Source: a bacterium (GTDB lineage: Bacteria; Patescibacteriota; Minisyncoccia; Phycocordibacterales; UBA2100). From it: 64,000 nt of DNA. Below are positions 23,073-64,000 of the stretch, in pieces. The stretch lies in NCBI GenBank assembly GCA_009924895.1, contig RFQR01000006.1:1800-65799 (forward strand), given 5' to 3'. The notes beneath the pieces were generated by a model. That model had not been told where the DNA came from and did no database searches. It saw nothing but the letters and a program-made list of their open reading frames with translations. The position numbers and the translations under genes are program-made. Numbering within the stretch: position 1 is the stretch's first letter; the number at the start of each line of letters is the position of its first letter.

Positions 23073-23165
23073 CTTCTAGTTAGACCTCTGAAGATTAAAA
23101 ATGGGTGTTCTACCTTGAATACTATCAGGGGTGACTGACCATATTCATTTGCAATGAGGGTTGGT

Positions 23166-24215
23166 CTAAGAGGAACCTTTAAAAAGTGAAATAAACCAGG
23201 AAAAAATGTCAGTGCTACTGAGTCCATTTGGTCCAGACAAATAGGCCCTATAAATTTCATCTGGATTCATCGCATAGTTTGCAACTGCCGTATATCCTGT
23301 ATATCCATCAAATCCGCCAAAATCAGTAATATTTGCACGAACCCCCGTAGGGTCCACTCTAAAATAAGAAGATGCCATACATGAGCGGCGAAGCTTGCCA
23401 TCTAAATATACATCTATTGTGCGACCATTGAGAACAACCGTAATCAGTGTCCAGCGCTGAAGGTCCACTTCGGGAAGATCGCATGTAGGAGGACTTGTTA
23501 AAAGGGAATCATTCATCGCTAAAGGCGTGAAGAGTGTTTTCACAACTCCAACAGAGAGATTTCCAATATTTCCAGAGGCATTGGGAGGAACAGCGGAAGC
23601 AGTTGGTGTCGCGCTGGGGCGCGGGGCGCTGGCATTCGTCATTCCAGATCCAGATCCAGATCCAGATCCAGCTCCAGACTGAAATCCGTCGGTAGCTTCA
23701 ATCAACTTATATCCCTTCCCAGATCCAAAGCCCGATTGAAACCCTTCTGCACTCGGATTCTGCGTATGCGTCCTTACCATCAATGTATTATTAAATGCAC
23801 CCAAGCCAACTAAAAGACTTGAAAAATAGTCACCCTGCAGTTCGAAAATGTGCTTTCGTGTATTTAGATTCTTATTATAACTGTTCACATATATCCATAT
23901 ATTTACAGAATACTCCCCACCCTCATAGGGAGTAGGGATTTTTGGAAGATTATCAGGCGCCGAATCAGCAGCACGTTTTTGTGTAAGAATAGGTATAAGT
24001 TTATCACTCGAAGATGTATATAAATAGCGATACATATAATATATAACAATGAACCCTATTACAAGAAAAATCATAGTTATGATTGAAAATCCACTTGAGC
24101 TTTTTACAGGCTGTGCTGTAGCCATAGATGCGGCCATAGATGCTCCTAGATTTGATGTGGAAGGCCCCGATGCAGATTTATTAAATCCTACCATAGAGGA
24201 TACTGACGTTCCCAT
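23166..24215 (-). CDS. LamG/ConA-like membrane protein (paralog 2) with a Gly/Ser low-complexity linker.
   Basis: TM helix, GSGSGSGSG tract, WTLITVVLNGRTIDVYLDGKL...GYTAVANYAMNPDEI. Confidence 0.55.
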   Translation of the reverse strand: MGTSVSSMVGFNKSASGPSTSNLGASMAASMATAQPVKSSSGFSIITMIFLVIGFIVIYYMYRYLYTSSSDKLIPILTQKRAADSAPDNLPKIPTPYEGGEYSVNIWIYVNSYNKNLNTRKHIFELQGDYFSSLLVGLGAFNNTLMVRTHTQNPSAEGFQSGFGSGKGYKLIEATDGFQSGAGSGSGSGSGMTNASAPRPSATPTASAVPPNASGNIGNLSVGVVKTLFTPLAMNDSLLTSPPTCDLPEVDLQRWTLITVVLNGRTIDVYLDGKLRRSCMASSYFRVDPTGVRANITDFGGFDGYTGYTAVANYAMNPDEIYRAYLSGPNGLSSTDIFSWFISLFKGSS

Positions 24216-24325
24216 ATTTCTCTACCGTGAAGTATCAAATTTAATATTCATGGCACTGTGGTTCACTATTTTATGCAGGGCAACTACATAAAATAGTAAA
24301 CGGCATAGATACGTCCCAAAAAGAC

Positions 24326-25378
24326 TCAGGCATAGGGTGTGGACCATTGATATAAGGGGGATGCGGCACGAATAGGAGGGGGGTCGAAGCATCCTCCTGG
24401 GCATACACTTATGCCACTCAATGTAGAACCGATGGATGTAGATTCGGCGGAAGGATTTAGTCCAACCCTATTAATCATTTCGGAGGGGGGGGCCGTCGTA
24501 GACAGCCCGAGTGTTGAACCGGAATTCAAATAAGGCCTTCCTCGTGTATCGGAGAACGTCTTATATATGATACGAATCTCGCCGCTACTTATACGATTCG
24601 TATATAGATTCGCCATAGCAATTTGCCCTATAAGTTCATCAGACCCGGAGGTAACACCTTTGTAGTTTGTATTTGATTTATTCGATATTGGCATATACAT
24701 TGTTTTTTGTGACAAGACAAGAATATCATTGTAATATATATCAAACCGCCGGCCCTCGCGACCCACGGTTACCATTGTCCACTTTTGAATAGGAATCGGG
24801 GGGACTTGCAATGTTTCAATATATTTTTGAGAGTTTGTAGAGCCAGCTGATACGGGGGGGCCTTCCGTTTGCACAATCAGTTGCGACATAGCCTTCCCTT
24901 GACGACTTGCATCCGGGGCATTTAATACTTCAAATCCTACAACGCCTGCAATATTAAATATGGATTTATATCCTGAATGATTGCAAATAGAACAGTTATT
25001 CGTTGCAGGGTCGCATGGGCAGGGAACAAACGTTCCATCTTCACAGGATGCCTGATTTGGATTTGTCCCGCATTTTGCATATGCACCTGTTCGATTCATA
25101 GGGCTCAAATATACAAAGGCAGAAAAACTTCCATCTGTATCCGTGTAAAACGTGGACGCTGTATCAGCATCAATCATTGATGTTTCAGAACCGAGCGAAA
25201 AAGGGCCTATGGCGCTTACTTGAATTTTTGGAACATAGCTAGGACTGAAATACATTACTAGAACTATAACAAATAGAATTGCGAGGAGAATATAGCCCAT
25301 ACGTATCGATGTAAACCATGCAAATATGGATATATTATGTGATGTCATGCTAGGAACAATTGCTTTACCCAAATCCAT
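24326..25378 (-). CDS. LamG/ConA-like membrane protein (paralog 3) with a Cys-rich segment.
   Basis: TM helix, WTMVTVGREGRRFDIYYNDIL...IGQIAMANLYTNRISSGEI. Confidence 0.5.
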   Translation of the reverse strand: MDLGKAIVPSMTSHNISIFAWFTSIRMGYILLAILFVIVLVMYFSPSYVPKIQVSAIGPFSLGSETSMIDADTASTFYTDTDGSFSAFVYLSPMNRTGAYAKCGTNPNQASCEDGTFVPCPCDPATNNCSICNHSGYKSIFNIAGVVGFEVLNAPDASRQGKAMSQLIVQTEGPPVSAGSTNSQKYIETLQVPPIPIQKWTMVTVGREGRRFDIYYNDILVLSQKTMYMPISNKSNTNYKGVTSGSDELIGQIAMANLYTNRISSGEIRIIYKTFSDTRGRPYLNSGSTLGLSTTAPPSEMINRVGLNPSAESTSIGSTLSGISVCPGGCFDPPPIRAASPLYQWSTPYA

Positions 25379-26527: not shown

Positions 26528-27676
26528 TCACGCCTTCCGCGTCTTTCTTTTTTTCATATCCCCATGTTCAGGATGAAATTGAATACGATCATAATATGCC
26601 TGTGTATCTTTCATTTTGCACCCACGTAGTTTTTCGCGCAAATAACATACAAACGAAATACGAGTAAACAGTTGGTCTCCACCCAATGTGCCCGTATCTG
26701 ATGAGTTGTTGTGTATTTTTGGAAGCGCCCTATTATATTTTTTATCAGCATCTGTTTCTATCATTTCGGTATTACAGTGCCATTCGTGCACATCCATTGC
26801 AAGAAAATCTCCCGTTCGCACATTAAATCCGATTTTATATCTCGGTAGAATTGTTGCTCCACCTGTATAACGACCCCGCTCAATTACAGACAGATTTCCA
26901 TACCCCTCTTTAAAATCCCCTGCATCTACATGTAGGGCTGTGCGAAAGTTTCTATTCACCGTAATCGATGAAAACGCCGTTTTAGTAATGCGATAGCGCG
27001 ATTTCTCAGAGGCAGCGGAAAGTTGTTTTGCATGTTTGTCCGGAATCAGGCGTTTAAATACGGAATCAATCGCCTCAATATAAGGTAATCCATGTTTATA
27101 TTGCTCGAAATACTTTTGTGTATAAGAAGTCAGGCGACATGGAAGGCCCATAAAAGGTGTTTCTTCGAAATATCCTAAGACGGAACTGAACACATTATTA
27201 TTCACGCGCATTTTGGAAAGTTTCCCGTTTTGTTTATACCTCGCAGACCAACCATTCACTTCCACAGGCTTCCGCTTTTTCCAATAGTTGGAATCATGTT
27301 GAATAGGCCCTGCAGCTGCTCCGCGATTTCGCGAGGATGCCGCCGTTTGATAATATGCTTCCCACCCGATTTTTATCAAATCATTCGGCAATACGTGTTT
27401 GCGAAAACGTGCGAGTAACTTCTTTTCGCCACTGGATGGATCGATACCGTATACATCTACATCCTCGTCCAGAATCTCATTCGCATCCTTTTCTGTAAAA
27501 TAGGTGCCCTCTCGCCCCTTTATTTCATCCTCCGTAAGCTGTGGCTTCAATGTTAGTTCGCGAACTTTCAGCTTTAACTCCTTTGCGTGACCTTCAGGTA
27601 TCTGCAACCCTTCATAGATTTCTGGCTTATAATGCTTTGCTTTTCGACTTACTCCTCTTTTTGAGTGTGCCACCAT
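26528..27676 (-). CDS. Hypothetical protein, possibly a 2OG-Fe(II) dioxygenase-like fold (HxD ... H motif).
   Basis: 382-aa ORF. TALHVDAGDF then ~45 aa later VHEWH, with a later TRISF (RxS-like). The functional call is weak. Confidence 0.35.
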   Translation of the reverse strand: MVAHSKRGVSRKAKHYKPEIYEGLQIPEGHAKELKLKVRELTLKPQLTEDEIKGREGTYFTEKDANEILDEDVDVYGIDPSSGEKKLLARFRKHVLPNDLIKIGWEAYYQTAASSRNRGAAAGPIQHDSNYWKKRKPVEVNGWSARYKQNGKLSKMRVNNNVFSSVLGYFEETPFMGLPCRLTSYTQKYFEQYKHGLPYIEAIDSVFKRLIPDKHAKQLSAASEKSRYRITKTAFSSITVNRNFRTALHVDAGDFKEGYGNLSVIERGRYTGGATILPRYKIGFNVRTGDFLAMDVHEWHCNTEMIETDADKKYNRALPKIHNNSSDTGTLGGDQLFTRISFVCYLREKLRGCKMKDTQAYYDRIQFHPEHGDMKKRKTRKA

Positions 27677-28605: not shown

Positions 28606-29073
28606 TTAGAGTTTCTCACCTTGCGTCGTCCACCATAAAAGACCCCCTGCTATCGCCACGACACCCGCCCCCAGCACCGCCCCCTTCATCATAGACCGTG
28701 AATCAATCTCTTCAAAATCAACATTTGTAATAAAAGGGCTCTTTTCCCTTGCCCCAATACGTGTATAAAAGTTGATAGATTCTATCTCGGTGATTGTGGG
28801 TTTACCCAATAATGTATTTACCTCATTATGAAGCCGAACTGTCCAGCGAAACAAATCATCGCGGCGATCCAGGTGAGGCGATATAGGCAACTTTTGTAAA
28901 TGTTGTTTATAATGCTCACGGCATATGGGACAGGGTATCAACTCTGTCATACTTTCATAAAACTCTTTTGCCGCCCGCTTTTGCGCATATGTCGGGTTGC
29001 TGGGATATGAAAGTGCAACTACATGAATCGTATGCCAAAATATAGGTCCCCAGACATTCGGAGGGAATCGCAT
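28606..29073 (-). CDS. Erv1/ALR-family FAD-linked sulfhydryl oxidase with a C-terminal TM anchor.
   Basis: WGPIFWHTIHVVALSYP...CPICREHY (CxxC) plus a hydrophobic C-terminus. Typical of the NCLDV E10R/pB119L class. Confidence 0.8.
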   Translation of the reverse strand: MRFPPNVWGPIFWHTIHVVALSYPSNPTYAQKRAAKEFYESMTELIPCPICREHYKQHLQKLPISPHLDRRDDLFRWTVRLHNEVNTLLGKPTITEIESINFYTRIGAREKSPFITNVDFEEIDSRSMMKGAVLGAGVVAIAGGLLWWTTQGEKL

Positions 29074-49136: not shown

Positions 49137-50381
49137 TCAATCGACTTTCTCTTTCATTTTCGACGCTGAGTAACGCGTAGAACTTCTTGGGTTCACGGGA
49201 GACCTTCCTAGGTTTGGTAATCTAAATTCCTTAAACCTCCTCGTAGAACCGACTGAGGTTTGTGGTAAAGAATGTAAAGAAAGTAAAGAAAGGGGGTTAT
49301 GTAATGTAAGAGGGGGAGTTAGGTTACGCGTAGAACTTTGGGTCACGGGAGACCTTCCTACGGTTGGTGATCTAAAATCCTTAAACCTCCTCGTAAAATC
49401 GGCTGAGGTTTCTGGGAAAGAATGAGAAAGGGATCTCTGTAGTGTAGGAGAGCGAGATAGTTTACGCGTAGAACTTCTTGGGTTCACGGGAGACCCTACT
49501 AAGGTTGGTGGCGCTGAATTAAAGGGGTTATTTAATCCCTGAAGCCGTTCGGCATTAGCCCTATAAGAGCTATTTTCCCCTATACGGTAACCCCGCCGCC
49601 GCATAATATCCCTCAACGCCTCCTCCCTTGCATCAAGTATTTGCTGTTTCTGATTGTTACGCGTAAGCCTTTCTGCATTACGTCTTATTTTATACTGTTC
49701 TAGTGCAGTTCGAATCTTCCCTATAATGCCTTTTTTAGGTTTTATAATACCTTCTATTATCTTTGAAAGCGTATTAACAAGTTTTTTTTCCTGGTTTGTG
49801 TAGGGAGTGGAAAATGTCATAGAATCGTTCCAGGAGCCATTTGGATTACCTTGTGCGTAATATGCCGCTTTCAGCTTTTCCGTCCTATCATCAAAAAATT
49901 TTTTTAAAAGGCTTCTTGCAGTCGCGGCCTCGTTATTACGCAGTTGTTCTTGACTTGCTTTGTGTGCTTGAAGGGCGTCTAAGCCCGCCTTATGACGAGC
50001 GGAATGGGATCCCACCGTTTTTTTCGCCTCTTTTTCTGCTTCTTTTAGTGCCTCGCGCATTGCGCGCGCCGCTTTTGCATTAAATCTACTAACTTTACTG
50101 AATGGGTTATAACCCTCTCGTAAGGCAGTGAGTCTAGATTTAATACCATTATACCACTTCCTAGTCTTAAGTGCGTTTCGGCTAGGTTTATTAAACTGAA
50201 TCGCCTTTGCTCGTCGTGATCCAGTCTTGGAGGTCTTTGTCTTTGTCTTTGTCTTTGTCTTTGGACTTGCTCTGGCAGCTGCCCTATATGTTTCTCCTGT
50301 ACTACCCATATTTCCTGTAATCTTTCGACCTAATCCTAAGACTTTTGTGAAACCATTCTTGAGAGTTTTAAAAAATCCCAT
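49137..50381 (-). CDS. Highly basic low-complexity protein (KT repeats, S/T/P/R-rich C-terminal repeats), a candidate DNA-binding or core protein.
   Basis: KTKTKTKTKT tract. The C-terminal domain is built of about 3 tandem copies of TRRFK(D/E)FR.P..GRSPV...SSTR. Confidence 0.45.
   Translation of the reverse strand: MGFFKTLKNGFTKVLGLGRKITGNMGSTGETYRAAARASPKTKTKTKTKTSKTGSRRAKAIQFNKPSRNALKTRKWYNGIKSRLTALREGYNPFSKVSRFNAKAARAMREALKEAEKEAKKTVGSHSARHKAGLDALQAHKASQEQLRNNEAATARSLLKKFFDDRTEKLKAAYYAQGNPNGSWNDSMTFSTPYTNQEKKLVNTLSKIIEGIIKPKKGIIGKIRTALEQYKIRRNAERLTRNNQKQQILDAREEALRDIMRRRGYRIGENSSYRANAERLQGLNNPFNSAPPTLVGSPVNPRSSTRKLSRSPTLQRSLSHSFPETSADFTRRFKDFRSPTVGRSPVTQSSTRNLTPPLTLHNPLSLLSLHSLPQTSVGSTRRFKEFRLPNLGRSPVNPRSSTRYSASKMKEKVD
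49160..49525. repeat. About 140-bp tandem repeat x about 2.6 within the 3' coding part of the basic protein gene.
   Basis: tacgcgtagaacttcttgggttcacgggagacc... recurs at ~49170, 49326 and 49463. Confidence 0.8.
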
Positions 50382-51801: not shown

Positions 51802-52050
51802 ATGACGAAGCCCGGGACAAATACAAACACAATTTTTAAGAAAGTGTTTGATTATATAAAACAGGATGAAATACGTCATAAAATACAAGAAGAACTCGTG
51901 GACCCTCTCATAGAACATATCATGAAGCGTGTATTTCCATATATCATACTTACATGTGTATTTTTCATATTGCTTCTTATAGTTGTTCTCTTAACGCTCG
52001 GCATCATTGTGTTTCAAATGCGTAGAAGTAGTTTACCCGGAGTAGAATGA
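51802..52050 (+). CDS. Small single-pass membrane protein.
   Basis: 82 aa with a C-terminal TM helix ILTCVFFILLLIVVLLTLGIIVF. Confidence 0.4.
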   Translation: MTKPGTNTNTIFKKVFDYIKQDEIRHKIQEELVDPLIEHIMKRVFPYIILTCVFFILLLIVVLLTLGIIVFQMRRSSLPGVE

Positions 52051-52466
52051 ATCCACCTCCAAACGCTATAACACCTACTGGAAATCCTGTAGAGCATATT
52101 GGAAATTTGATTCGTCATTGGGTGTTTTATGATACAAAAATATCAGATCTCAACAAACAGATTGGTAGCGCAAGAAGCACGCGCAATACATATGAAACAG
52201 AGATACTTCAGAAACTTCGTGAAAACAATATCATACATCCGGTTATTCAAACGGCAGGGGGGCGCTTGATTGTATCCGATGATAAACATACAGCGCCATT
52301 GACATTCACCAATCTCGAATCACTCTTACATAAATATTATGCAAAAAAACCGGGGGCATACGATGAAACAAGTGATATTTTGAAATTTATAAAAGCAAAT
52401 CGCGAGACAACTATTACACCGTGTTTAAAACGGCAAGGTGTTCCTCGCACACGTAATACAACATAA
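52047..52466 (+). CDS. Hypothetical protein.
   Basis: 139-aa ORF whose start overlaps the previous stop. Confidence 0.4.
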   Translation: MNPPPNAITPTGNPVEHIGNLIRHWVFYDTKISDLNKQIGSARSTRNTYETEILQKLRENNIIHPVIQTAGGRLIVSDDKHTAPLTFTNLESLLHKYYAKKPGAYDETSDILKFIKANRETTITPCLKRQGVPRTRNTT

Positions 52467-52482
52467 AGCATCTTTACAATAT

Positions 52483-53010
52483 ATGACTAGGGATATGGCA
52501 TTTTGGGAAGATATTGAATGGAAAGCATGGTTACGAGAGTATGTCACTTGGAAGAATGAGCAGATTCCACGACATGCAGCTATTCGTCATTTTTGTAATG
52601 AACTTTGTATATTTCTTCATTTCCATGGCTATTTCTTACGTGTCAATCGCAATACACTGAAATCACATATAGCGACTGGATTATATAACAGTCGAACATC
52701 GTGTAATATAACACACTGGATATTCGGAGAACAAGATGCGGACTATCAGCATAAAGTATATTTTGCACACGTGATTGATTCTACGGAATGGAACAAATTC
52801 TGGAACACATCCGCAAAATGGTGCGATCTAGATGCGAATGTTCTATATGGTCTTGAACGTCAATATTGTATTGAACATTATGTTTGGACACAGCTAGATT
52901 TAGGTATATCAAAACATACACGAACGGTGAATGAATTATTAGGCTTAGATGATGATATAATATCAGAAAATGAAAATCATGACACGATATTCCAAGATAT
53001 GAATGATTAA
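52483..53010 (+). CDS. Hypothetical His/Trp-rich protein.
   Basis: ORF 52438..53010 trimmed to the Met at 52483. Confidence 0.4.
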   Translation: MTRDMAFWEDIEWKAWLREYVTWKNEQIPRHAAIRHFCNELCIFLHFHGYFLRVNRNTLKSHIATGLYNSRTSCNITHWIFGEQDADYQHKVYFAHVIDSTEWNKFWNTSAKWCDLDANVLYGLERQYCIEHYVWTQLDLGISKHTRTVNELLGLDDDIISENENHDTIFQDMND

Positions 53011-54233
53011 CTGCTAGACCACTTTGAATTATTAAAGGGTCGCATAAATAAAGAATCCACTTCTTTTTCAAATTCGTGCACTTTAGTATCGAATTTCAAG
53101 GCGTCGGGTGTTTTAGGTATTTTGCCATTTTTCATTAACATTTCTTCATCATGGGCGGATTGAGATGGTTTCTTGCCATAGCAATTCACTCCATATAACA
53201 TATCGGGATTATCAAAATATCCTCCATTGAGTCCAACCGTCCCACATGCGCCGTGATCATCCGCCGGGCCGTTTTGAATTTTATCATATGTTTCTTGTTG
53301 AGTTGGATATACGGCCATTTGCCCCTTCACCCAACCATAGTTGCACCAATCCGCGCCTTTACTCCAAGCATTTTTGACTTGTTCATATGTGGCTAGTTCT
53401 GCTCCAAGAGATTTACATAAAGGCTCCGCATCATAATAGGTGAACTTGTTGTGAGAGACATTATATACTTCATTACTACCTGTCGGAAGTACTTTCTCTA
53501 CAATATTATTCATCTGTATTTCCTGCTTGGGAGTTATGGTTTGAGGAGGTATAGGTGCTTGTGTTATAGGGGGTGTCGTATCAACAACAGGTAAAGGTGG
53601 TTTAGATATACCAAGGGACATTTTAATAGATCTCGAAAGATATTCATATCCGTGTGATATTTGTTTATTAAAAATGGCAAAGACCACTAAAAATACTGTA
53701 AAAAATGCAATAAAAATCCAGAGGGGGGATATCCAAGAACTGGAGATTTTTCCACTATTGTTTGCAGCCATATTGAACATATTCGATCCACTCGCAGATC
53801 CACTCGCAGATCCACTTGCAGATCCACTTGCAGATCCACTCGCATTTTTAGAGTTTGAGTTTCCAAAAATATTAAACATGCTGTTATTTGCAGCATTATT
53901 TTTCGTATTCGCCCCACTTTCTTTTTTTGTGTTTACCATGTTTGTATTTGTTCGAGGCGGGGATGCATTTCCAAACGGTAATAAACTATTAAAAGATGAA
54001 GTCTTATTTGCAGCAGGTATTACAGAACTTATTGCAGAACTCGCTGCATTTACTGCAGTGGTTGCCGCGGAACTCGCTGCATTTACTGCAGTGGTTGCCG
54101 CAGAACTGGCTGCACTTGCAAGTGCATTTACTGCCCCTGTAGTTACTCCAAATGCGCTTGTTAAAGCTCCCGCAACGGGATTTTGTCCTATAGGATTCGA
54201 AGCAGTCGCGTTCATCTCTACCGTGTTGTGCAT
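53007..54233 (-). CDS. Membrane protein with a C-terminal Link (hyaluronan-binding, Xlink) module.
   Basis: A/S-rich N-terminus, (SGSA)n, TM (aa 168-188), Pro-rich stalk, then KFTYYDAEPLCKSLGAELATYEQVKNAWSKGADWCNYGWVKGQMAVYPTQ...GACG...CYG, which fits the Link module (TSG-6/CD44 type, 4 Cys). Confidence 0.5.
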   Translation of the reverse strand: MHNTVEMNATASNPIGQNPVAGALTSAFGVTTGAVNALASAASSAATTAVNAASSAATTAVNAASSAISSVIPAANKTSSFNSLLPFGNASPPRTNTNMVNTKKESGANTKNNAANNSMFNIFGNSNSKNASGSASGSASGSASGSASGSNMFNMAANNSGKISSSWISPLWIFIAFFTVFLVVFAIFNKQISHGYEYLSRSIKMSLGISKPPLPVVDTTPPITQAPIPPQTITPKQEIQMNNIVEKVLPTGSNEVYNVSHNKFTYYDAEPLCKSLGAELATYEQVKNAWSKGADWCNYGWVKGQMAVYPTQQETYDKIQNGPADDHGACGTVGLNGGYFDNPDMLYGVNCYGKKPSQSAHDEEMLMKNGKIPKTPDALKFDTKVHEFEKEVDSLFMRPFNNSKWSSS

Positions 54234-54236
54234 AAT

Positions 54237-55241
54237 TTAAGAGTGAAGAATATCGGGTAGTTGTGATTTCATATGTTCCAAAAATGCAGCGACACTTACA
54301 TCCCAGTGAATACCATCCGGGGCGAGATTTGGATATGCCATACCAAATCCCCATGCATCAGGAACATTTTTCAACTTTCCAGTCTTTCCATCATATTCCA
54401 ACGAAGACACGCTTTTTCCATCCATCATTAAAGAAATACTGCGAGGTTGAAATCCCATTGCATATATAGTCCATGTAGCATTTTGAGAACTACGAATCAC
54501 GTTTGATATGTCATGTGTTTGAACGAGTTTTACAGGTATTCTACCACTTACAATATCATCCGCTATGATTGCTGCTTCTGCTTTTATACCATCATAGTCT
54601 CCATTACGATCCCAATAAAATGGTTCTGCACTATTATAATACGCCACTATATCTGCACCCAAACTAGACAGATTCCGTATAACAAGGGTGCCGCTATGCA
54701 TTGTTCCAAAGACGAGGACACGGTCTGTCGGCTTTACATAATGTTGAAGGCGCGTGGCATCCAGGGCAATCTCAAGCGGAATAGAAGGGATTCCGAGATC
54801 TAATGTTTTCGGGTCACTTCCAGGCGCAAGAATAAGACGTTTGGATGTTATATGGGTTGTTTTTCCTAAAGACTGTATATCGAGTGTCCATGTATGTGAT
54901 TCCGAGTCATAGTTCGCTTGTAGAAGAGTTCCTTGGATGTGTTGTATTTTTTTGAAAAGAGGTAGGGCGAGCTTTCGAAGAAGATGCCCTATTTCGACGA
55001 GTTTTGTAGTATTTTCGTGCGGAGGCTCCAGTGCAAGGGAGGGACATGCCGTTTGTAACGCGCGAATTGTTTTGGACCAAGGCGTATTTGATTCAACTGC
55101 CGTCCAACGTCGGGATATATCGCCCCCGTCGAAATGGGGATCAATAATCGTTATATTGGATATGTCTATACCAGATTCATGGAGGAGGAGTAACATGCTA
55201 AGACCTGTTACTCCTGCGCCTACAATGCATACACTTGTCAT
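54237..55241 (-). CDS. FAD/NAD(P)-binding oxidoreductase (two Rossmann dinucleotide-binding motifs).
   Basis: MTSVCIVGAGVTGLS (GxGxxG) and RVLVFGTMHSGTLV. Confidence 0.55.
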   Translation of the reverse strand: MTSVCIVGAGVTGLSMLLLLHESGIDISNITIIDPHFDGGDISRRWTAVESNTPWSKTIRALQTACPSLALEPPHENTTKLVEIGHLLRKLALPLFKKIQHIQGTLLQANYDSESHTWTLDIQSLGKTTHITSKRLILAPGSDPKTLDLGIPSIPLEIALDATRLQHYVKPTDRVLVFGTMHSGTLVIRNLSSLGADIVAYYNSAEPFYWDRNGDYDGIKAEAAIIADDIVSGRIPVKLVQTHDISNVIRSSQNATWTIYAMGFQPRSISLMMDGKSVSSLEYDGKTGKLKNVPDAWGFGMAYPNLAPDGIHWDVSVAAFLEHMKSQLPDILHS

Positions 55242-55267
55242 TCTACTATACCGTGAAGTATCAAAAT

Positions 55268-55358
55268 TAATAACACTACCGTTTAATAGCACTGCCGTTT
55301 AATAGCACTGCCATTTAATATTTTATTTACTTATACTGCAAGTAAATAAAATATTAAA
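55268..55358. promoter_or_regulatory. 16-bp x 3 tandem repeat followed by a ~17-bp-stem AT-rich palindrome, between the 3' end of 55409..55924 and the 5' end of the oxidoreductase gene.
   Basis: aatagcactgccgttt units; taatattttatttact / agtaaataaaatatta inverted repeat. Confidence 0.5.
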
Positions 55359-58523: not shown

Positions 58524-61500
58524 TTACTCTTCTGCATCTACAATCGTAATCTCCATATCAGGTTCATCCATCAGAACGGCTCTTTGTGGCATAGCAATAT
58601 TCATGCGCAGACGAGCGGTCGAGCACATGTCATCCGTGTCTTCATGTAACTCTTGATTAATCTGTTCCTGCGTAGGTCCCTCATCCTCGTCCTCAAATCC
58701 TTCCAATGGTGTCATACCCTCCTGGAGACGCATATACGCCGACTCATCGAATAGCACCTCAAAGAATCCTGTGCCTCCACGAATCGGTTGCCCCATCATA
58801 ATATTCGCTGAAATACCTGTCACTGGATCAATTTCTCCAAAGAGGGCGGCGCGTAACAGAATCTTTTCCGTTTCCTCAAAGGATGCTTTCGCTAAAGGCC
58901 CAATATCCATTTTGTTAATACCATATCGGTCGACCGACATAAGGCGTCCTGCACGCGTCATTACATCACACAGGAGTCCCAGATGCCTAGAGTTTACACC
59001 CGCCTCTTCAAAGAGAGTCGTAATCTCCTGAATAAGTGTAGACCTCGTCGCCTCAATACCCAGATGTTCGTATACGTCGTGCACATGACTACTTGTAAGC
59101 TTCAACCCATCCACATAGGGGTGATTCATAACCGCAAGAAAGTTGGTGCCATCCGTATCTAACACATATTGCGTTACCTGCTTATAGACGCGCTCTTCTG
59201 TATTATATTCCAGCGTGTCCTTGTCCTGGCGAAAGTTAACAGCCTTGATTCCAGGAACGCCGCGAATCACAATCCCTGTTAGCAATCTATTTTGTAGCTT
59301 CTTGAGGGCCAGTAAATCGTCCATACCCGAGTTCATCTCAGGAGGAATGCGCACACGCATAATCAGGCGCTGCGAGTTATAATCACTATAGACCAAGTTA
59401 ATCGCTGTCCCGAACTTCTGTCGGAGCACAAAGGCTATATCATCCATACTAATATTTTTCATGAACATGCGCTCCCTATCAAGCTCTAAGCGGAGCATGA
59501 GCCGGCTCCAAATGGCCTTTTGTTCCTCCCCCGCCTCTCCAAACTTGGGCACAGGTGCCGCATCAGGTTCCATTTCCGCCTCAAACGCTTTATAGAACTT
59601 AATGAGGTCACGATCCTCCTCAAGCACCGACGTGGAATCGTCCGGGTCATAATAGATTGCCGCTTTGACTGTAATATCTTTTAGAAGCGTAAGCTCCAAA
59701 TCTTGCGCGACTTTTCTAGCCTTCTCTTTGGAATCACGAATCTCAGGCTTCAAGCTTATGGTGAGAGAAATCGCCTTGGGATTCTGCGTAACCTTGAGCA
59801 ACTCCTTCAACCGTGGCACACCTCGTGTGACATTCGACTTGGCAGCTACACCAGCTAAATGAAACGTATTGAGCGTCATCTGTGTCGATGGCTCGCCAAT
59901 ACTCTGTGCCGCGATGATACCCACCTGCTCCCCAGGCTGCGCCCACCCCTGCCAGTTCTTCACAACAATCATCTCACAGACTGTATCAAATGCCTTGCGT
60001 GTGAGGCGCTCCTTCAGAACCACCTTGTGAGGGGCCAAATAGAAGCGAAGAAGGGCCGCCCAGAGTTTATGATACGACTGTGTCCTCTGAATCAGCTTTT
60101 CAATACCCTGTAGAACATAGAGGGGTGTCAAATCCGTCGCCGCCTTTTTATCCAGGCGAAAACTCGTTATGACATTTATTAAGACGCGGTCAATATTCAC
60201 AGATGCAAACAGCCCTACATCCTGTCTCGACCGTTGCACTCCCTCCACGAGCATCTTGCGATCGTCTAAAACCTGCTCCGCAAAAGCTTTCAGAACCGCG
60301 GCATCCTCCCCACGAAGAGTGCCCTCTGCCAAGACACTTGTCATATCCGCGACAGTCATTCCATACTCCCGTAGAATCTCTTCGTCACTTAGTTTCCCAA
60401 GACCCAGGCTCGCAGACTCAATCTTGGTCGCATTGATTCCATCCTCCCCATATTTGAATTGTGCAATATTCATACGACTGTCTCGGACGGAACCATCGTA
60501 TTGGACGGTTAAATCTTCCATGGCCTTGACGAGCTGTCGCTGGATATAGCCTGTGTCGGCGGTATCATAGACTTGAAGGCCATTCGCCAAACCAAATGTG
60601 AATGTTCCAGGCACTGTCAAATCATATAACTTAGGATACTTTTCTAGACCAACAGGTGTAATCTCCACAATTTCATCTAGAACTACATCCTTCTGGAATG
60701 GGAAGTTACGATGCTCAGAAGAAGCCTTTAGAGCCAGTAGTTTTGTATTCTTCGCATCATCCATGAGACGTATCTTATCTGCGAATCGTTTCGCCCATTG
60801 AGCCCTGATCGATAGGCGGTAGCTTGGTTGAATAACCTCCGTGCCAAGATTATTGCTTGTAAGTTGGGACTCAAACACCTTTGCAAAGATACCAAGACGA
60901 CTCAATAGCATATTGATGCCCTCAATCAAATCCTTGGAAGCAGAACCGACTTCCACCGAGTTATCCGACACAGAACCATCTCCAGAGAAATAGCCATCAA
61001 GAAGTGCCACTATGAAATGTTCAGGCGCTGCAAAGGACTCCGCAGGAACACGCTTATTGGATGCTCCATGCCCAACCAAGAGGTCTAGGAACTTGGCTAA
61101 GACAGTGGAATAGCCACGCACGGTAGTAGTCACACCCCCTATTGCGTTGAGCTTTACATATTCGGTAGTCTTTACACGCTGACTCTCAAACCAGTCATGA
61201 ACGAACTGACAGATTGCCGAATTGTTGTTCGTAATAGCTATATATCCACTCGTCACATCCACATTACCCTCCGCAAGGAACAGGCCCAGGAAACGGCCAT
61301 TCTCTTCACTCATGGTGAACTCATCGGGAATGCGCGCGTGGTCACGGTTGGTAGTAAAGGGATAGACATATCCACGAAGTATATTATCCGTCTTAGAACG
61401 TGTGAGTGTTCGCACAAAGCGCCCTTTATTCTCGTAAGGAAGCGTGAAGGCCTTGCCATTGTTTTCATCCCACCAGCCGCCAGGAATGTGCTCGCGATCC

Positions 61501-64000
61501 AGCATTGCCTCCGCCACGGCCTCTTGAGCTACCAGGAAATCAGTTCCATAGAGATAGACATCCTTTGATAGATACTTGGCAAGAGAAATGGACTGACAAA
61601 CGACTGGAGGTGCTACTAGTTGCATGGTGACTGGCATACAATGCCCAGGACGCACCTCAAGTGTATCCATCTTCTCAAATGTCTTTGTTTCGCTGCGCCA
61701 AATCAAGAGGGACTTGGATTCAGGGACAATCACGGAACGACCACCCAATGTCTTCACTTCATAGAGCTGTTTCCCAGGGTCATGGCGAGTGACTGCCGCT
61801 ACAGAACCCCATGATACAGATCCCTCTGCTGTCACTGTAGGAATGAACGTATTCGATGATAGTTGTAGCATTTCAAGTTCGTTATCCTCAGGGAAATGCT
61901 CAATATCGCCCATCTTTGCACCCCTCATATGCGCATCAATCCAGTCCCCAATTGCTACACACTTTGTCAGACCCTCTTCCATCACCACAATCTTCGTATC
62001 ACCTGTCACAGACTTTACAGCTGTATCAATCAGACCCTCACGACCTGACATGGCATGAAAGAAGAACTCCTGTGGCGTCAGACCCTGTATAAAGCTGCTC
62101 TCCACAAAGCCCCTCGCCTCAGCACCATCATCATACTTCTTGAAATGTGGCAAAGTCCTATCGGAGAACCCATACGGAATACGCTTTCCTTCAGGCGCCT
62201 GTTGTCCCACACAAGCCATCATCTGCGAAATATTAATGGTGCTACCCTTGGAACCCGCTCGCACCATTGCCACTAGACGGTTCTCGTCCGAAAGCGCTCC
62301 CAAGCCAATCTTGCCCGACTCCTCCGTCGCCTTATTCAGCTCTGTAAACACTTTATCTTCAAACTCCTGTTGATTTGTCTTTCCCGTATTGTTATCAAAG
62401 AGATCTAAATGAATCTGGAGGAGAATATTCTCAATCGCCGCCTTACGCTTCTTCACCACTTCCTCCATCTGTTTCCGAGTATCTTCATCGGCAATCAAAT
62501 CCGAAATACCCACGGAGAACCCATTATACACCAGAAACTGCTCCACCGTATTTTGCATACTGTCAATAAAGTTCACAGTGTCTTTGGGGCCATGGTCGCG
62601 ATATGTCACGTGCACAACACCCTTTGAAGGCTTTGAGAATATATCCTTATCAAAGATTCCCTGCTCCACCACACCTTCCCGAATTTTCACATAGTTTTCC
62701 TGGCTCTTATTATCCTTATAGAGACCATTCCCCATTTCCAGATTAATAGGCGGCATCAACTGCGTAAGAACTTGTTGACCCGTCCAACGAGACGACTTTC
62801 CCTCTACAACTTTCCCCCCCTTTGGCACCACACCTTCAAAACGCTTATTCCACATCATCATGTTCATAAACTCTCGACGATTGAAATCCACTTGTGGACG
62901 TGTCATTCGATAGGAACCCACCAACGAGTCTTGCACAATACCAATCAACGGCTTTGCGTGACGAGGTGTCACAATCTGATGAGGAACCGCCGCAATCTCT
63001 GCCAGCTCCGTAGAAGCCTCGTAGGACTGGGGGATATGCGCATTCATCTCATCGCCGTCAAAATCCGCATTATAGGGTGCTGTTACGGACACATTCAGGC
63101 GGAAAGTATTATACGGCAATACCTTGACCCGGTGGCCCATCATAGACATCCTGTGGAGAGTAGGTTGCCGGTTGAAGAGGATGATATCTCCGTCGTCCAA
63201 ATGCCTATTCACCACATCACCCAGCTTCAGCACAATCTCTCTCGTATTCACATGCTTCAATGAAATCATGCGGCCATCGGGGCGCACGATAGTCTTTGCG
63301 CCAGGGTGTTTATCCGCCCCATTTTGGATTAGTTTATACATCTGCTCTCGATTATAGGGCGTTACCTTCTCAGGCACCGTCAGATTCAGGGCAATCTTCA
63401 GCGGAACGCCAATCTCCGCAATAGACAAGTTCGGATCCGGCGTAATCACAGAACGCGCTGAAAACTCCACACGCTTCCCCTGAATATTGTAGCGAATACG
63501 CCCCTCCTTTGAACCCAGGCGCTGCTGCACAGACTTCAAGGGGCGTCCTGAACGCTGGGCAGAAGGAGCCACGCCAGGAATCTGATTGTCCACAAGAGTC
63601 GCAATATGATATTGTAGAACCGTGTGCTCATCTTCAATCAAGTTCTTCGCGGCATTATTATTAATCTTATCATTCAGACGCTGGTTCGTCGAGATGATTT
63701 CAAAGAGCTTGTGTGTCAAATCATCTTCCGAGCGCTGATTGTTGTCTTGGATGACAGAGGGACGCACTTGAGGAGGAGGAATAGGAAGCACGGAACAAAT
63801 CATCCAATCCGGGCGACACCAATATCGATTGAGGCCCATGAAATCCACATCCTCATCCGTCATACGACGAAAGAGGCGGAGCACATACTCCACCTCGAGA
63901 ACCTGACTCACCATTTCGGGTTTCTCCTGACCGGGATTTGTCAAACTGCTTGTCCATTCGGCAGTGATACGTGCAATCCCATCACGTGTATAACGGTCCG
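58524..64000 (-). CDS. RPB1: DNA-directed RNA polymerase largest subunit (RPB1), N-terminally truncated by the window edge, interrupted by an intein.
   Basis: RPDWMI...VLPIPPPQVRPS, NADFDGDEMN (catalytic), GREGLIDTAVK | intein | TADTGYIQRQLVKAMEDLTVQYDGSVRDS. The minus-strand frame is still open at nt 64000. Confidence 0.95.
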   Translation of the reverse strand, partial: DRYTRDGIARITAEWTSSLTNPGQEKPEMVSQVLEVEYVLRLFRRMTDEDVDFMGLNRYWCRPDWMICSVLPIPPPQVRPSVIQDNNQRSEDDLTHKLFEIISTNQRLNDKINNNAAKNLIEDEHTVLQYHIATLVDNQIPGVAPSAQRSGRPLKSVQQRLGSKEGRIRYNIQGKRVEFSARSVITPDPNLSIAEIGVPLKIALNLTVPEKVTPYNREQMYKLIQNGADKHPGAKTIVRPDGRMISLKHVNTREIVLKLGDVVNRHLDDGDIILFNRQPTLHRMSMMGHRVKVLPYNTFRLNVSVTAPYNADFDGDEMNAHIPQSYEASTELAEIAAVPHQIVTPRHAKPLIGIVQDSLVGSYRMTRPQVDFNRREFMNMMMWNKRFEGVVPKGGKVVEGKSSRWTGQQVLTQLMPPINLEMGNGLYKDNKSQENYVKIREGVVEQGIFDKDIFSKPSKGVVHVTYRDHGPKDTVNFIDSMQNTVEQFLVYNGFSVGISDLIADEDTRKQMEEVVKKRKAAIENILLQIHLDLFDNNTGKTNQQEFEDKVFTELNKATEESGKIGLGALSDENRLVAMVRAGSKGSTINISQMMACVGQQAPEGKRIPYGFSDRTLPHFKKYDDGAEARGFVESSFIQGLTPQEFFFHAMSGREGLIDTAVKSVTGDTKIVVMEEGLTKCVAIGDWIDAHMRGAKMGDIEHFPEDNELEMLQLSSNTFIPTVTAEGSVSWGSVAAVTRHDPGKQLYEVKTLGGRSVIVPESKSLLIWRSETKTFEKMDTLEVRPGHCMPVTMQLVAPPVVCQSISLAKYLSKDVYLYGTDFLVAQEAVAEAMLDREHIPGGWWDENNGKAFTLPYENKGRFVRTLTRSKTDNILRGYVYPFTTNRDHARIPDEFTMSEENGRFLGLFLAEGNVDVTSGYIAITNNNSAICQFVHDWFESQRVKTTEYVKLNAIGGVTTTVRGYSTVLAKFLDLLVGHGASNKRVPAESFAAPEHFIVALLDGYFSGDGSVSDNSVEVGSASKDLIEGINMLLSRLGIFAKVFESQLTSNNLGTEVIQPSYRLSIRAQWAKRFADKIRLMDDAKNTKLLALKASSEHRNFPFQKDVVLDEIVEITPVGLEKYPKLYDLTVPGTFTFGLANGLQVYDTADTGYIQRQLVKAMEDLTVQYDGSVRDSRMNIAQFKYGEDGINATKIESASLGLGKLSDEEILREYGMTVADMTSVLAEGTLRGEDAAVLKAFAEQVLDDRKMLVEGVQRSRQDVGLFASVNIDRVLINVITSFRLDKKAATDLTPLYVLQGIEKLIQRTQSYHKLWAALLRFYLAPHKVVLKERLTRKAFDTVCEMIVVKNWQGWAQPGEQVGIIAAQSIGEPSTQMTLNTFHLAGVAAKSNVTRGVPRLKELLKVTQNPKAISLTISLKPEIRDSKEKARKVAQDLELTLLKDITVKAAIYYDPDDSTSVLEEDRDLIKFYKAFEAEMEPDAAPVPKFGEAGEEQKAIWSRLMLRLELDRERMFMKNISMDDIAFVLRQKFGTAINLVYSDYNSQRLIMRVRIPPEMNSGMDDLLALKKLQNRLLTGIVIRGVPGIKAVNFRQDKDTLEYNTEERVYKQVTQYVLDTDGTNFLAVMNHPYVDGLKLTSSHVHDVYEHLGIEATRSTLIQEITTLFEEAGVNSRHLGLLCDVMTRAGRLMSVDRYGINKMDIGPLAKASFEETEKILLRAALFGEIDPVTGISANIMMGQPIRGGTGFFEVLFDESAYMRLQEGMTPLEGFEDEDEGPTQEQINQELHEDTDDMCSTARLRMNIAMPQRAVLMDEPDMEITIVDAEE
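60564..62012 (-). mobile_element. 483-aa intein with a LAGLIDADG homing-endonuclease domain inserted in RPB1.
   Basis: The N-terminal block SVTGDTKIVVMEEGLTKCVAIGDWI aligns with the VMA1 intein CFAKGTNVLMADGSIECIENI. LAGLIDADG motifs LGLFLAEGN and IVALLDGYFSGDGS. The C-terminal block FGLANGLQVYD|T aligns with VMA1 FLLANQVVVHN|C. Confidence 0.75.

What the first reader, a model, noticed from the sequence alone, without database searches (positions are those of the whole stretch)
53175..53471. Link (hyaluronan-binding) module in a viral membrane protein.
Residues ~255-353 of the 408-aa protein match the Link module: the LATYEQL-like helix, the paired CxxGW motif and the PRxxCG-like loop, with four cysteines at the expected positions. 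Link modules are essentially a metazoan extracellular-matrix domain (CD44, TSG-6, lecticans). Its presence on a TM-anchored viral protein with a Pro-rich stalk suggests host capture and a role in binding hyaluronan or related glycosaminoglycans on host cells. It also hints that the host may be an animal.
Basis: partly seen in the sequence, partly recalled or inferred. Interest (0 to 1): 0.65.

Follow-up and report, generated by a model that had tools for sequence, protein, structure and literature searches.

The report
Giant-virus membrane protein with Link module
The gene does encode a true Link (hyaluronan-receptor-type) domain, but it belongs to a large, old and highly conserved family of giant-virus membrane proteins of plankton-infecting viruses. 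It is not a recent theft from an animal host, and it probably does not bind hyaluronan.

Summary
Observation confirmed. ORF 53007-54233 (-), 408 aa, hits Pfam Xlink at E=1.6e-15 (57.6 bits, cut-off 27). A high-confidence AlphaFold model (pLDDT 92) matches only Link modules in the PDB: aggrecan G1, TSG-6 (TM 0.81-0.84, 2.4 A), LYVE-1 and CD44. C-type lectin domains score far worse. The four cysteines sit in the canonical Link columns.

The window is a giant virus (NCLDV) with Imitervirales-type genes. The protein belongs to a very large viral family: about 440 clusters at 50% identity with E<=1e-30, and at least 582 IMG/VR loci. The family has fixed synteny, and the Link domain is the best-conserved segment among the neighbouring genes compared. 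Link-domain proteins that are probably relatives are annotated in haptophyte and dinoflagellate viruses (CeV, PelV-1). In PkV RF02 such a protein was found in purified virions. So this is an ancient viral gene, and nothing points to an animal host.

The basic hyaluronan-contact residues are replaced by Asn/Gln and the domain is acidic, so hyaluronan is an unlikely ligand. Flanking charges predict that the domain faces the cytoplasm. A viral Erv1 oxidase in the window could form its disulfides there.

Most likely role: a virion-membrane, lectin-like recognition or anchoring protein. It is a new member of an annotated but uncharacterised family.

The parts
53007..54233 (-). Whole gene, 408 aa plus stop. 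The true start may be Met7 (54213-54215), where most homologues begin.
   Evidence: ORF list. Family alignment shows M7 nearly invariant as the start.
53730..54233 (-). N-terminal low-complexity region (aa 1-168), rich in Ala/Asn/Ser/Thr and almost uncharged. It contains an 11-residue-periodic segment, the conserved FNSLIPFGN motif (aa 80-88) and a (GSAS)n repeat (aa 131-151).
   Evidence: Composition N 20%, A 19%, charged residues 7%. Identity at lag 11 is 0.27 against 0.14 when shuffled, across 111 homologues. 33-bp and 12-bp tandem repeats.
53670..53726 (-). Single transmembrane helix (aa 170-188, PLWIFIAFFTVFLVVFAIF).
   Evidence: Kyte-Doolittle mean 2.68. One TM in 225 of 286 family members. 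K+R are enriched on the C-terminal flank (1.6 against 0.64).
53640..53663 (-). Conserved juxtamembrane motif QIxxGYEY (aa 191-198).
   Evidence: G195, Y196 and Y198 invariant and Q191 nearly invariant in 32 homologues.
53502..53609 (-). Pro-rich variable linker (aa 209-244).
   Evidence: Sequence. Variable in the alignment. Low pLDDT at the start of the model.
53166..53474 (-). Link module proper (aa 254-356), with cysteines C273 (53415-53417), C297 (53343-53345), C330 (53244-53246) and C351 (53181-53183).
   Evidence: Pfam Xlink E=1.6e-15. AF2 pLDDT 95-98. Foldseek top 25 PDB hits are all Link modules. Cysteine columns invariant.
53259..53297 (-). Family-specific insertion (aa 313-325, ETYDKIQNGPAD) forming an extra helix between strand 4 and the third cysteine.
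   Evidence: 12-column gap in TSG-6 and metazoan-type modules. Helix at model residues 74-81.
53010..53165 (-). Conserved C-terminal extension (aa 357-408): two helices plus the terminal PFNxxKW motif. It is modelled as one compact unit with the Link module.
   Evidence: Homologues match query residues about 14-167 of 169. pLDDT 86-96, pTM 0.78. F400 and W405 nearly invariant.
52047..52466 (+). Convergent neighbour gene encoding a DUF5760 protein. It marks the conserved gene block that contains the Link gene.
   Evidence: Pfam DUF5760. Found downstream on the opposite strand in 82 of 102 loci, median distance 1.1 kb.
28609..29073 (-). Erv1/Alr-family sulfhydryl oxidase gene elsewhere in the window. 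It is the enzyme that could form the Link disulfides in the cytoplasm.
   Evidence: Pfam Evr1_Alr E=1.3e-20.

Best explanation
The gene encodes a member of a large, vertically inherited family of giant-virus (Nucleocytoviricota, Imitervirales-type) membrane proteins.

Architecture, from N to C terminus:
- an uncharged, low-complexity N-terminal region;
- one transmembrane helix;
- a Pro-rich tether;
- a compact C-terminal domain of about 155 residues, made of a true Link module (two disulfides, C273-C351 and C297-C330 by homology), a family-specific inserted helix and a two-helix extension.

Shown here: the fold, the family size, the synteny, the strong conservation, and the loss of the basic hyaluronan-contact residues.

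From the literature: a Link-domain protein of a related cultured virus is packaged in virions.

Inferred mechanism: the protein is anchored in the virion's internal lipid membrane. Its Link domain lies on the cytoplasm-derived (outer) face of that membrane and is oxidised by the virus's own Erv1 oxidase. It acts as a lectin-like recognition module. Its groove is conserved and uncharged, lined with amides and aromatics (N262, N298, Y299, Y309, N336, Y339). This groove would bind a conserved ligand that is not hyaluronan, most likely a host surface glycan or glycoconjugate, during attachment or when the internal membrane is exposed for fusion.
For: Fold and family identity:
- Xlink hit at 57.6 bits against a cut-off of 27.
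- All 10 distant members tested pass the threshold.
- AF2 pLDDT 92.1.
- Foldseek PDB: the top 25 hits are all Link modules, with TSG-6 at TM 0.81-0.84, rmsd 2.4 A and 27% identity. C-type lectin domains appear only from E about 0.07.
- The four cysteines are conserved in 276 of 278 domains. One sequence has lost C297 and C330 together.
- The cysteines align with those of TSG-6.

Family size and inheritance:
- 1683 / 988 / 440 cluster representatives at E<=1e-3 / 1e-10 / 1e-30.
- At least 582 IMG/VR loci, many labelled GVMAG.
- DUF5760, a WLM-like peptidase and a 1882-aa protein lie in fixed order and orientation next to the gene.
- Median domain identity is 57.7%, the highest among the neighbouring genes compared.

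Virion association:
- The window also carries minor capsid proteins P8 and P11 and three ConA-like lectin paralogues, like the PkV RF02 virion set.

Ligand and topology:
- N262 (274/278), N298, Y299 and Y/F309 are conserved at positions equivalent to hyaluronan-contact residues.
- Positive charge is enriched on the C-terminal flank of the TM in 152 members against 22.
- An Erv1/Alr oxidase is encoded in the window.
Against: - No binding, localisation or topology experiment exists for this protein.
- Orthology to PkV RF02 ORF195, the CeV protein and PelV1_042 is inferred from annotation and size, not from sequence comparison.
- Very high conservation is unusual for a host-receptor-binding protein. 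Such proteins normally evolve fast, so this fits a structural partner equally well.
- If the domain lies under the capsid, it cannot mediate first contact with the host.
- The positive-inside rule is only a statistical predictor, and a translocated N-terminus of about 170 residues would be unusual.
Confidence: 0.55

Rival explanations
1. Structural tether. The Link fold is used as a protein-protein module, as in many C-type-lectin-like domains. It would anchor the internal virion membrane to the inner face of the capsid or to minor capsid proteins, with no carbohydrate ligand.
For: The domain is the most conserved segment among the neighbouring genes compared (57.7% median identity), as expected for a partner that co-evolves slowly. 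It is predicted to lie on the cytoplasmic, capsid-facing side. The gene sits near minor capsid protein genes: P11 in the window, and P9 and P2 in the distant loci L017 and L020. The domain is acidic.
Against: The near-invariant polar and aromatic residues fall at positions equivalent to the carbohydrate groove of TSG-6 and CD44. The 35-70-residue flexible Pro-rich tether is odd for a rigid structural anchor. A distant variant carries collagen repeats after the domain, which suggests a projecting fibre.
Confidence: 0.25
2. A Link module recently captured from an animal host binds hyaluronan or a related glycosaminoglycan on animal cells.
For: It is a true Link module. Three aromatic positions of the hyaluronan groove are retained: Y299, Y309 and Y339. 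The best PDB match is hyaluronan-bound aggrecan G1.
Against: The family comprises hundreds of diverged viral lineages with fixed synteny. Identity to metazoan-type modules is only 24-33%. The basic residues K11/R41 and R78 are replaced by Q/N, and Y12/Y42 by an invariant Asn. Median net charge is -2 against +7 for TSG-6. Known hosts of viruses with annotated Link-domain proteins are haptophytes and a dinoflagellate. There is no signal peptide, and the domain is predicted to be cytoplasmic.
Confidence: 0.04
3. The domain binds glycans made by the virus itself or by the infected cell. It would organise a virion glycan or fibre layer, or retain virus-made polysaccharide, and would not recognise the uninfected host.
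For: The window encodes a GT2 glycosyltransferase and a weak FUT8-like match. Giant viruses are known to make their own glycans (PMC9614988, listed). A distant variant carries collagen repeats.
Against: No hyaluronan synthase or other polysaccharide synthase was seen in the window. The glycosyltransferases are not syntenic with the Link gene. There is no direct evidence.
Confidence: 0.1

Closest known systems
Metazoan Link modules (TSG-6, CD44, LYVE-1, aggrecan/HAPLN; Pfam PF00193)
   Same: Same fold: two helices and two antiparallel sheets. Same four cysteine positions. Shared LATYxQ helix and CxxGW motif. TM 0.81-0.84 to TSG-6. Like CD44 and LYVE-1, the module is extended by flanking sequence and tethered to a membrane anchor.
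   Different: Has a 12-residue helical insertion before the third cysteine and a different two-helix C-terminal extension. The basic hyaluronan-contact residues are absent and the net charge is acidic. There is no signal peptide, and the predicted orientation is the opposite one. Only 24-33% identity. The context is viral, not extracellular matrix.
Link-domain proteins annotated in cultured Mesomimiviridae: CeV A0A0N7G7N3 (281 aa), PkV RF02 ORF195 (30.7 kDa, in virions), PelV-1 PelV1_042
   Same: Giant-virus proteins with a Pfam Xlink domain. In the CeV protein it lies in the C-terminal part. These are most probably the same family. The window also shares the ConA-like lectin virion genes of PkV RF02.
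   Different: The window protein is longer (408 aa) because of an expanded N-terminal low-complexity region. None of these proteins has been studied functionally.
Tupanvirus 'putative neurocan core protein' (A0A6N1NY79)
   Same: It is the only viral structure in BFVD that matches at E<1e-3 (7.9e-7, TM about 0.5). It is a Link module in a giant virus.
   Different: Only 27% identity, 176 aa. It is reported to cluster with fish sequences, which suggests a separate recent acquisition (PMC12383584). It is not a close member of this family.
C-type-lectin-like viral membrane proteins (poxvirus A33/OPG161, ASFV EP153R, herpesvirus UL45)
   Same: Same superfamily fold, on membrane-anchored proteins of large DNA viruses. 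KEGG assigned PelV1_042 to pox A33.
   Different: The structural match is weak: UL45 E=0.015, EP153R 0.05, OPG161 0.18-1.5. The resemblance is only at superfamily level and does not indicate orthology.

Membership tests
Link module (Pfam Xlink, PF00193) | Profile match above the curated gathering score | tested here: met
   57.6 bits against 27, E=1.6e-15. 10 of 10 distant relatives score 41-58 bits.
Link module (Pfam Xlink, PF00193) | Link-type alpha/beta fold, closer to Link modules than to canonical C-type lectin domains | tested here: met
   AF2 pLDDT 92.1. The top 25 Foldseek PDB hits are all Link modules, with TSG-6 at TM 0.81-0.84 and rmsd 2.4 A. C-type lectin domains appear only from E about 0.07.
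Link module (Pfam Xlink, PF00193) | Four cysteines at the positions of the two conserved disulfides (1-4 and 2-3) | tested here: met
   C273, C297, C330 and C351 lie in invariant columns with the TSG-6 and metazoan-type module cysteines. They are conserved in 276 of 278 family domains. One sequence has lost C297 and C330 together. They sit in helix 1, before strand 3, in the loop before strand 5 and in the last strand, as in TSG-6.
Link module (Pfam Xlink, PF00193) | Disulfide geometry (S-S distances) in the three-dimensional model | not testable with these tools
   Model coordinates are not exposed to the scripting environment.
Hyaluronan-binding Link proteins (hyaladherins) | Conservation of the hyaluronan-contact residues (TSG-6 K11, Y12, Y59, F70, Y78; CD44 R41, Y42, R78, Y79) | tested here: not met
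   K11/R41 becomes Q/N/K (His in this protein). Y12/Y42 becomes Asn in 274 of 278. R78 becomes Asn. F70 becomes T/R/K. Only Y79, Y59 and Y78/Y105 are kept as aromatics. Net charge is -4 here and the family median is -2, against +7 for TSG-6. The residue list for TSG-6 and CD44 is from my own knowledge of the literature.
Hyaluronan-binding Link proteins (hyaladherins) | Secreted or extracellular location (signal peptide or type I/II ectodomain) | tested here: inconclusive
   There is no N-terminal signal sequence. K+R enrichment on the C-terminal flank of the TM (152 members against 22) predicts that the domain stays cytoplasmic. A viral Erv1 oxidase is available for cytoplasmic disulfide formation. 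This is a prediction only.
Hyaluronan-binding Link proteins (hyaladherins) | Binding of hyaluronan | not testable with these tools
   Requires a binding assay with the refolded domain.
Giant-virus Link-plus-extension membrane protein family (unnamed; CeV / PkV RF02 ORF195 type) | C-terminal domain of about 155 residues (Link module, inserted helix and two-helix extension ending in PFNxxKW) downstream of a TM anchor | tested here: met
   Matches cover query residues about 14-167 of 169 in hundreds of proteins, 440 of them at E<=1e-30. TM present in 267 of 286 members. Alignment.
Giant-virus Link-plus-extension membrane protein family (unnamed; CeV / PkV RF02 ORF195 type) | Location in a giant-virus genome within the conserved gene block | tested here: met
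   The window carries MCP, TopoIIA, capping enzyme, RPB1, P8, P11 and Erv1. DUF5760 lies convergently downstream in 82 of 102 loci.
Giant-virus Link-plus-extension membrane protein family (unnamed; CeV / PkV RF02 ORF195 type) | Presence in virions | not testable with these tools
   Reported for PkV RF02 ORF195 by mass spectrometry (PMC11953307). Orthology is assumed, not verified.
Poxvirus A33 / OPG161 (KEGG K25940) | Specific structural or sequence similarity to A33 | tested here: not met
   OPG161 models match only at E=0.18-1.5. No A33 entry appears in the sequence or profile searches of the PDB.

The most novel reading that the evidence does not exclude
The Link module is not a metazoan invention. 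Giant viruses of protists carry a deep, highly diversified clade of Link modules as a core virion-membrane protein. It is assembled on the cytoplasmic side with virus-made disulfides and has a ligand other than hyaluronan. On this reading, the animal hyaluronan receptors descend from, or share an ancient source with, this viral clade (virus-to-animal transfer near the origin of Metazoa).
Probability: 0.1. Interest if true: 0.75.

Novelty: new member of a known kind. Interest (0 to 1): 0.4.

Why it matters
Entry and attachment proteins of the abundant aquatic giant viruses (Imitervirales) are almost unknown. This family is present in hundreds of lineages, is the most conserved segment among the neighbouring genes compared, and is reported in virions of one isolate. 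That makes it a concrete, testable candidate for a conserved step in virion architecture or entry.

It also shows that the Link module has a very large non-animal reservoir. This matters for accounts of how hyaluronan-receptor domains originated. It also warns against reading a Link domain as evidence of an animal host or of hyaluronan binding.

Tried and rejected
- The first AlphaFold run, with 32 close homologues, gave a useless model (pLDDT 39). A 99-sequence diverse alignment fixed this.
- BFVD contains only a Tupanvirus Link protein above noise, so it says little about which cultured viruses carry the family.
- Bacterial origin was rejected. All 21 GTDB hits are MAG contigs. For most of the 21 several neighbouring ORFs match giant-virus loci, and two of the six with no other such match (L017, L020) carry giant-virus minor-capsid and UCH genes.
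- The KEGG-style assignment to pox A33 was rejected.
- The Pfam Serglycin hit (E=0.03, below cut-off) is an artefact of the Ser-Gly repeat.
- The idea that the N-terminus is an FG-nucleoporin-like repeat was rejected as weak: a median of 2 F[GN] motifs per protein.
- A weak tblastn 'paralogue' within the window (E=0.24) was rejected as chance.
- Literature searches combining Link or hyaluronan terms with giant-virus taxa found only passing annotations and no functional study.
Full report
**1. The observation**

The interval 53175-53471 on the minus strand encodes residues 255-353 of a 408-aa ORF (53007-54233, minus strand). Pfam-A gives Xlink (PF00193) at E=1.6e-15 and 57.6 bits, against a curated cut-off of 27. 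A phmmer search of all PDB sequences returns only Link-module proteins above noise: aggrecan G1 1.7e-11, LYVE-1 3e-5, CD44 6e-4, TSG-6 1e-3. A profile built from 99 family members does the same with stronger scores: aggrecan 1.2e-20, LYVE-1 2e-11, TSG-6 4e-8, CD44 3e-7. No C-type lectin appears.

So are the transmembrane helix (aa 170-188) and the Pro-rich linker (aa 209-244).

**2. Fold and cysteines**

A first AlphaFold run with 32 close homologues failed (pLDDT 39). A run with 99 diverse homologues gave pLDDT 92.1 and pTM 0.78 for aa 240-408.

Foldseek against the PDB lists Link modules in all of the top 25 places:
- hyaluronan-bound aggrecan G1, 2e-7;
- TSG-6, 8e-7, with target-normalised TM 0.81-0.84, rmsd 2.4 A and 27% identity;
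- LYVE-1 and CD44.

Canonical C-type lectin domains begin only at E about 0.07.

In an alignment with TSG-6 and metazoan-type Link modules, C273, C297, C330 and C351 occupy the four invariant cysteine columns. They lie in helix 1, just before strand 3, in the loop before strand 5 and in the last strand. This is the canonical arrangement for the 1-4 and 2-3 disulfides. Across 278 family domains, 276 keep all four cysteines. The one sequence that lacks C297 also lacks C330, as expected for partners. I could not measure S-S distances because model coordinates are not exposed.

Compared with canonical modules, the viral domain has two additions. One is a 12-residue helical insertion (aa 313-325). 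The other is a conserved 52-residue C-terminal extension of two helices ending in PFNxxKW. Both are modelled with high confidence as part of one compact domain.

**3. What the genome is**

The window encodes:
- an NCLDV major capsid protein, topoisomerase IIA, a capping enzyme and SNF2/RING and helicase proteins;
- an RPB1 with an intein;
- minor capsid proteins P8 and P11, Erv1/Alr, DUF5760, DUF5771, eIF4E, PCNA and PP2C;
- three tandem ConA-like lectin/glucanase paralogues next to the capsid gene.

This is a giant virus with a gene set of the Imitervirales type. I did not place it phylogenetically.

**4. The family**

A word-indexed search found more than 1437 homologues. The best 120 all have E<1e-100, carry PF00193, are 250-430 aa long, and come from metagenomes with no name other than 'hypothetical protein'.

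An exhaustive HMMER search of 1.84 billion cluster representatives with aa 240-408 gave 1683, 988 and 440 hits at E<=1e-3, 1e-10 and 1e-30. Nearly all of the best 150 are 135-580-aa proteins whose match covers the Link module plus the extension, usually at or near the C-terminus. Identity falls to about 38%. Ten distant members all pass the Xlink threshold.

The 21 hits in GTDB 'bacterial' genomes are all MAG contigs. For most of them several neighbouring ORFs match giant-virus loci. Two of the six contigs with no other such match (L017, L020) carry minor capsid P9 and P2 homologues and a UCH peptidase. The contigs examined are giant-virus contigs that were mis-binned, and nothing points to a bacterial origin for the rest.

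**5. Synteny and conservation**

I compared 102 fetched loci: 81 viral, and 21 from contigs labelled bacterial.
- The DUF5760 gene lies downstream on the opposite strand in 82 loci (median distance 1.1 kb).
- A WLM-like peptidase lies downstream on the same strand in 64 loci.
- A 1882-aa protein lies downstream in 47 loci.
- A FAD/NAD(P)-binding oxidoreductase lies directly upstream in 29 loci.

Orientation never varies.

The Link-plus-extension domain has a median identity of 57.7% (47-81%) to these loci. The corresponding figures are 56% for the peptidase, 46% for FtsJ, 41% for the oxidoreductase, 38% for DUF5760 and 31% for the 1882-aa protein. The gene is single-copy in the window and in every locus.

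This is the signature of an old, vertically inherited gene under strong constraint. It is not the signature of a recent capture.

**6. What is already known**

UniProt/Pfam already label a 281-aa Chrysochromulina ericina virus protein as 'Link domain-containing' (supplement of PMC12383584). That paper counts 12 viral Xlink hits. It notes that most viral, bacterial and metagenomic hits form a separate clade, whereas two Tupanvirus proteins group with fish sequences.

The PelV-1 preprint lists PelV1_042 as 'Poxviridae protein A33; Pfam Xlink' among possible structural proteins (PMC12338748).

[quoted passage not shown] The authors filed it under 'virus entry' (PMC11953307).

I found no functional work. 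The hosts of these isolates are haptophytes and a dinoflagellate.

**7. Is hyaluronan the ligand?**

I used the cysteine-anchored alignment and the published contact residues of TSG-6 and CD44. The residue list is from my own knowledge of that literature.

| Contact residue | In the viral family |
|---|---|
| K11 / R41 (basic) | Q/N/K (His in this protein) |
| Y12 / Y42 | Asn in 274 of 278 |
| R78 (basic) | Asn |
| F70 | T/R/K |
| CD44 Y79 | Y299, in 274 of 278 |
| TSG-6 Y59 | Y/F309 |
| TSG-6 Y78 / CD44 Y105 | Y/F339 |

The Link core has net charge -4 here and a family median of -2. It is zero or negative in 85% of members, against +7 for the TSG-6 module.

So the positions of the canonical groove are under strong constraint, but with an uncharged amide-and-aromatic chemistry. 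This argues for a conserved ligand that is not a polyanionic glycosaminoglycan. No hyaluronan synthase is in the window. The glycosyltransferases present are a 247-aa GT2 and a weak FUT8-like match.

**8. Topology (inference)**

There is no signal peptide. In 225 single-TM family members, K+R average 1.6 on the C-terminal flank of the helix and 0.64 on the N-terminal flank. The C-flank is the more positive in 152 members and the N-flank in 22. By the positive-inside rule the Link domain would stay on the cytoplasmic side, and the nearly uncharged N-terminal region (7% charged residues) would be the translocated part.

This is compatible with disulfide formation by the virus-encoded Erv1/Alr oxidase present in the window. 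Established knowledge for poxviruses and ASFV is that such oxidases oxidise cytoplasm-facing virion membrane proteins, which end up on the outer face of the viral membrane. By analogy, the Link domain would sit on the outer face of the internal virion membrane, on a 35-70-residue flexible tether.

Other family members have two or four TM helices. One distant variant adds collagen repeats after the domain. The anchor therefore varies while the domain is constant.

**9. Mechanism and rivals**

My best reading (confidence about 0.55, much higher for identity than for mechanism) is a virion-membrane, lectin-like protein. Its extended Link domain would recognise a conserved ligand other than hyaluronan, most likely a glycan, during attachment or when the internal membrane is exposed for fusion.

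The main rival (0.25) is a purely structural protein-protein tether between membrane and capsid. The extreme conservation, the predicted capsid-facing side and the neighbouring minor-capsid genes favour this rival. The groove-position conservation and the long flexible tether count against it.

Binding of virus-made glycans is possible (0.1).

**10. Verdict**

The protein is a new member (61% identical to its nearest database relative) of a family that is already annotated but uncharacterised. Interest is moderate. It comes from the unexpected size and conservation of the viral Link clade, and from its value as an experimentally tractable candidate for giant-virus entry or architecture. It does not come from host capture.

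The most novel reading not excluded is that the animal Link module and this viral clade share an ancient origin, with transfer from virus to animal. I put that at about 10%.

Noticed in passing
window 53970-54233 (-), aa 1-88; 33-bp tandem repeat at 54034-54114: The N-terminal part of the protein shows an 11-residue (hendecad) periodicity in an uncharged Ala/Asn/Val/Thr-rich sequence (SAATTAVNAAS repeats). Across 111 homologues, identity peaks at lags 4, 7, 11, 15, 18 and 22 (lag 11: 0.27 against 0.14 when shuffled). This suggests an amphipathic helix or a right-handed coiled coil.
   Followed up: partly
window 53781-53843 (-), aa 131-151; 12-bp repeat x5 at 53785-53844: A (GSAS)n Ser-Gly repeat causes a sub-threshold Pfam Serglycin hit (E=0.03). 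It is probably just low complexity, although Ser-Gly repeats are glycosaminoglycan attachment sites in animals.
   Followed up: no
window 54237-55292 (-): A FAD/NAD(P)-binding (Pyr_redox_2-like) oxidoreductase gene ends 3 nt before the Link gene's ATG. It is found directly upstream on the same strand in 29 of 102 loci. It has no CxxC motif and its role is unknown.
   Followed up: partly
window 22212-25378 (-): Three tandem paralogues with ConA-like lectin/glucanase (Laminin_G_3) domains lie immediately downstream of the major capsid protein gene. ConA-like lectin proteins are among the listed 'virus entry' virion proteins of PkV RF02.
   Followed up: no
window 58524-63944 (-): The RNA polymerase RPB1 gene is interrupted by an intein with a LAGLIDADG homing-endonuclease domain (aa about 687-1122). 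The syntenic RPB1 in L001 has one too.
   Followed up: no
window 28609-29073 (-) and 26531-27676 (-): The window encodes an Erv1/Alr sulfhydryl oxidase and a TET/JBP-family 2OG-Fe(II) dioxygenase, a possible DNA base modifier.
   Followed up: no
window 49137-50381 (-): A 414-aa, very basic Lys/Arg/Ser/Thr-rich protein with repeated GRSPVNPRSSTR-like units and a (KT)n run. It has no Pfam hit and no tblastn match in the 102 related loci. It may be a DNA-condensing or core protein.
   Followed up: no
L002-L022 (GTDB genome contigs): Twenty-one contigs deposited in 'bacterial' MAGs (Bacteroidetes, Alphaproteobacteria, Chitinophagaceae, Pacebacteria and others) carry this gene. For most of them the neighbouring ORFs match giant-virus genes, which indicates giant-virus contigs mis-binned into bacterial MAGs. 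Examples are RGCF01000091.1 and the 188-kb JAIYBN010000006.1.
   Followed up: partly
L020 4746-6086 (+) and L017 4782-5639 (+): A distant branch of the family has two N-terminal TM helices. The Link-plus-extension domain is followed by further sequence: collagen triple-helix repeats and a C-terminal globular region in L020. The gene is flanked by a UCH peptidase and a minor capsid P2 homologue, with a P9 homologue also found near L020.
   Followed up: partly
P0211 and P0265 (2386 and 2307 aa): These are very large proteins with about eight Link modules alternating with LDL-receptor class A repeats. Their source organism is unknown. They are metazoan-type modules without the viral insertion.
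   Followed up: no
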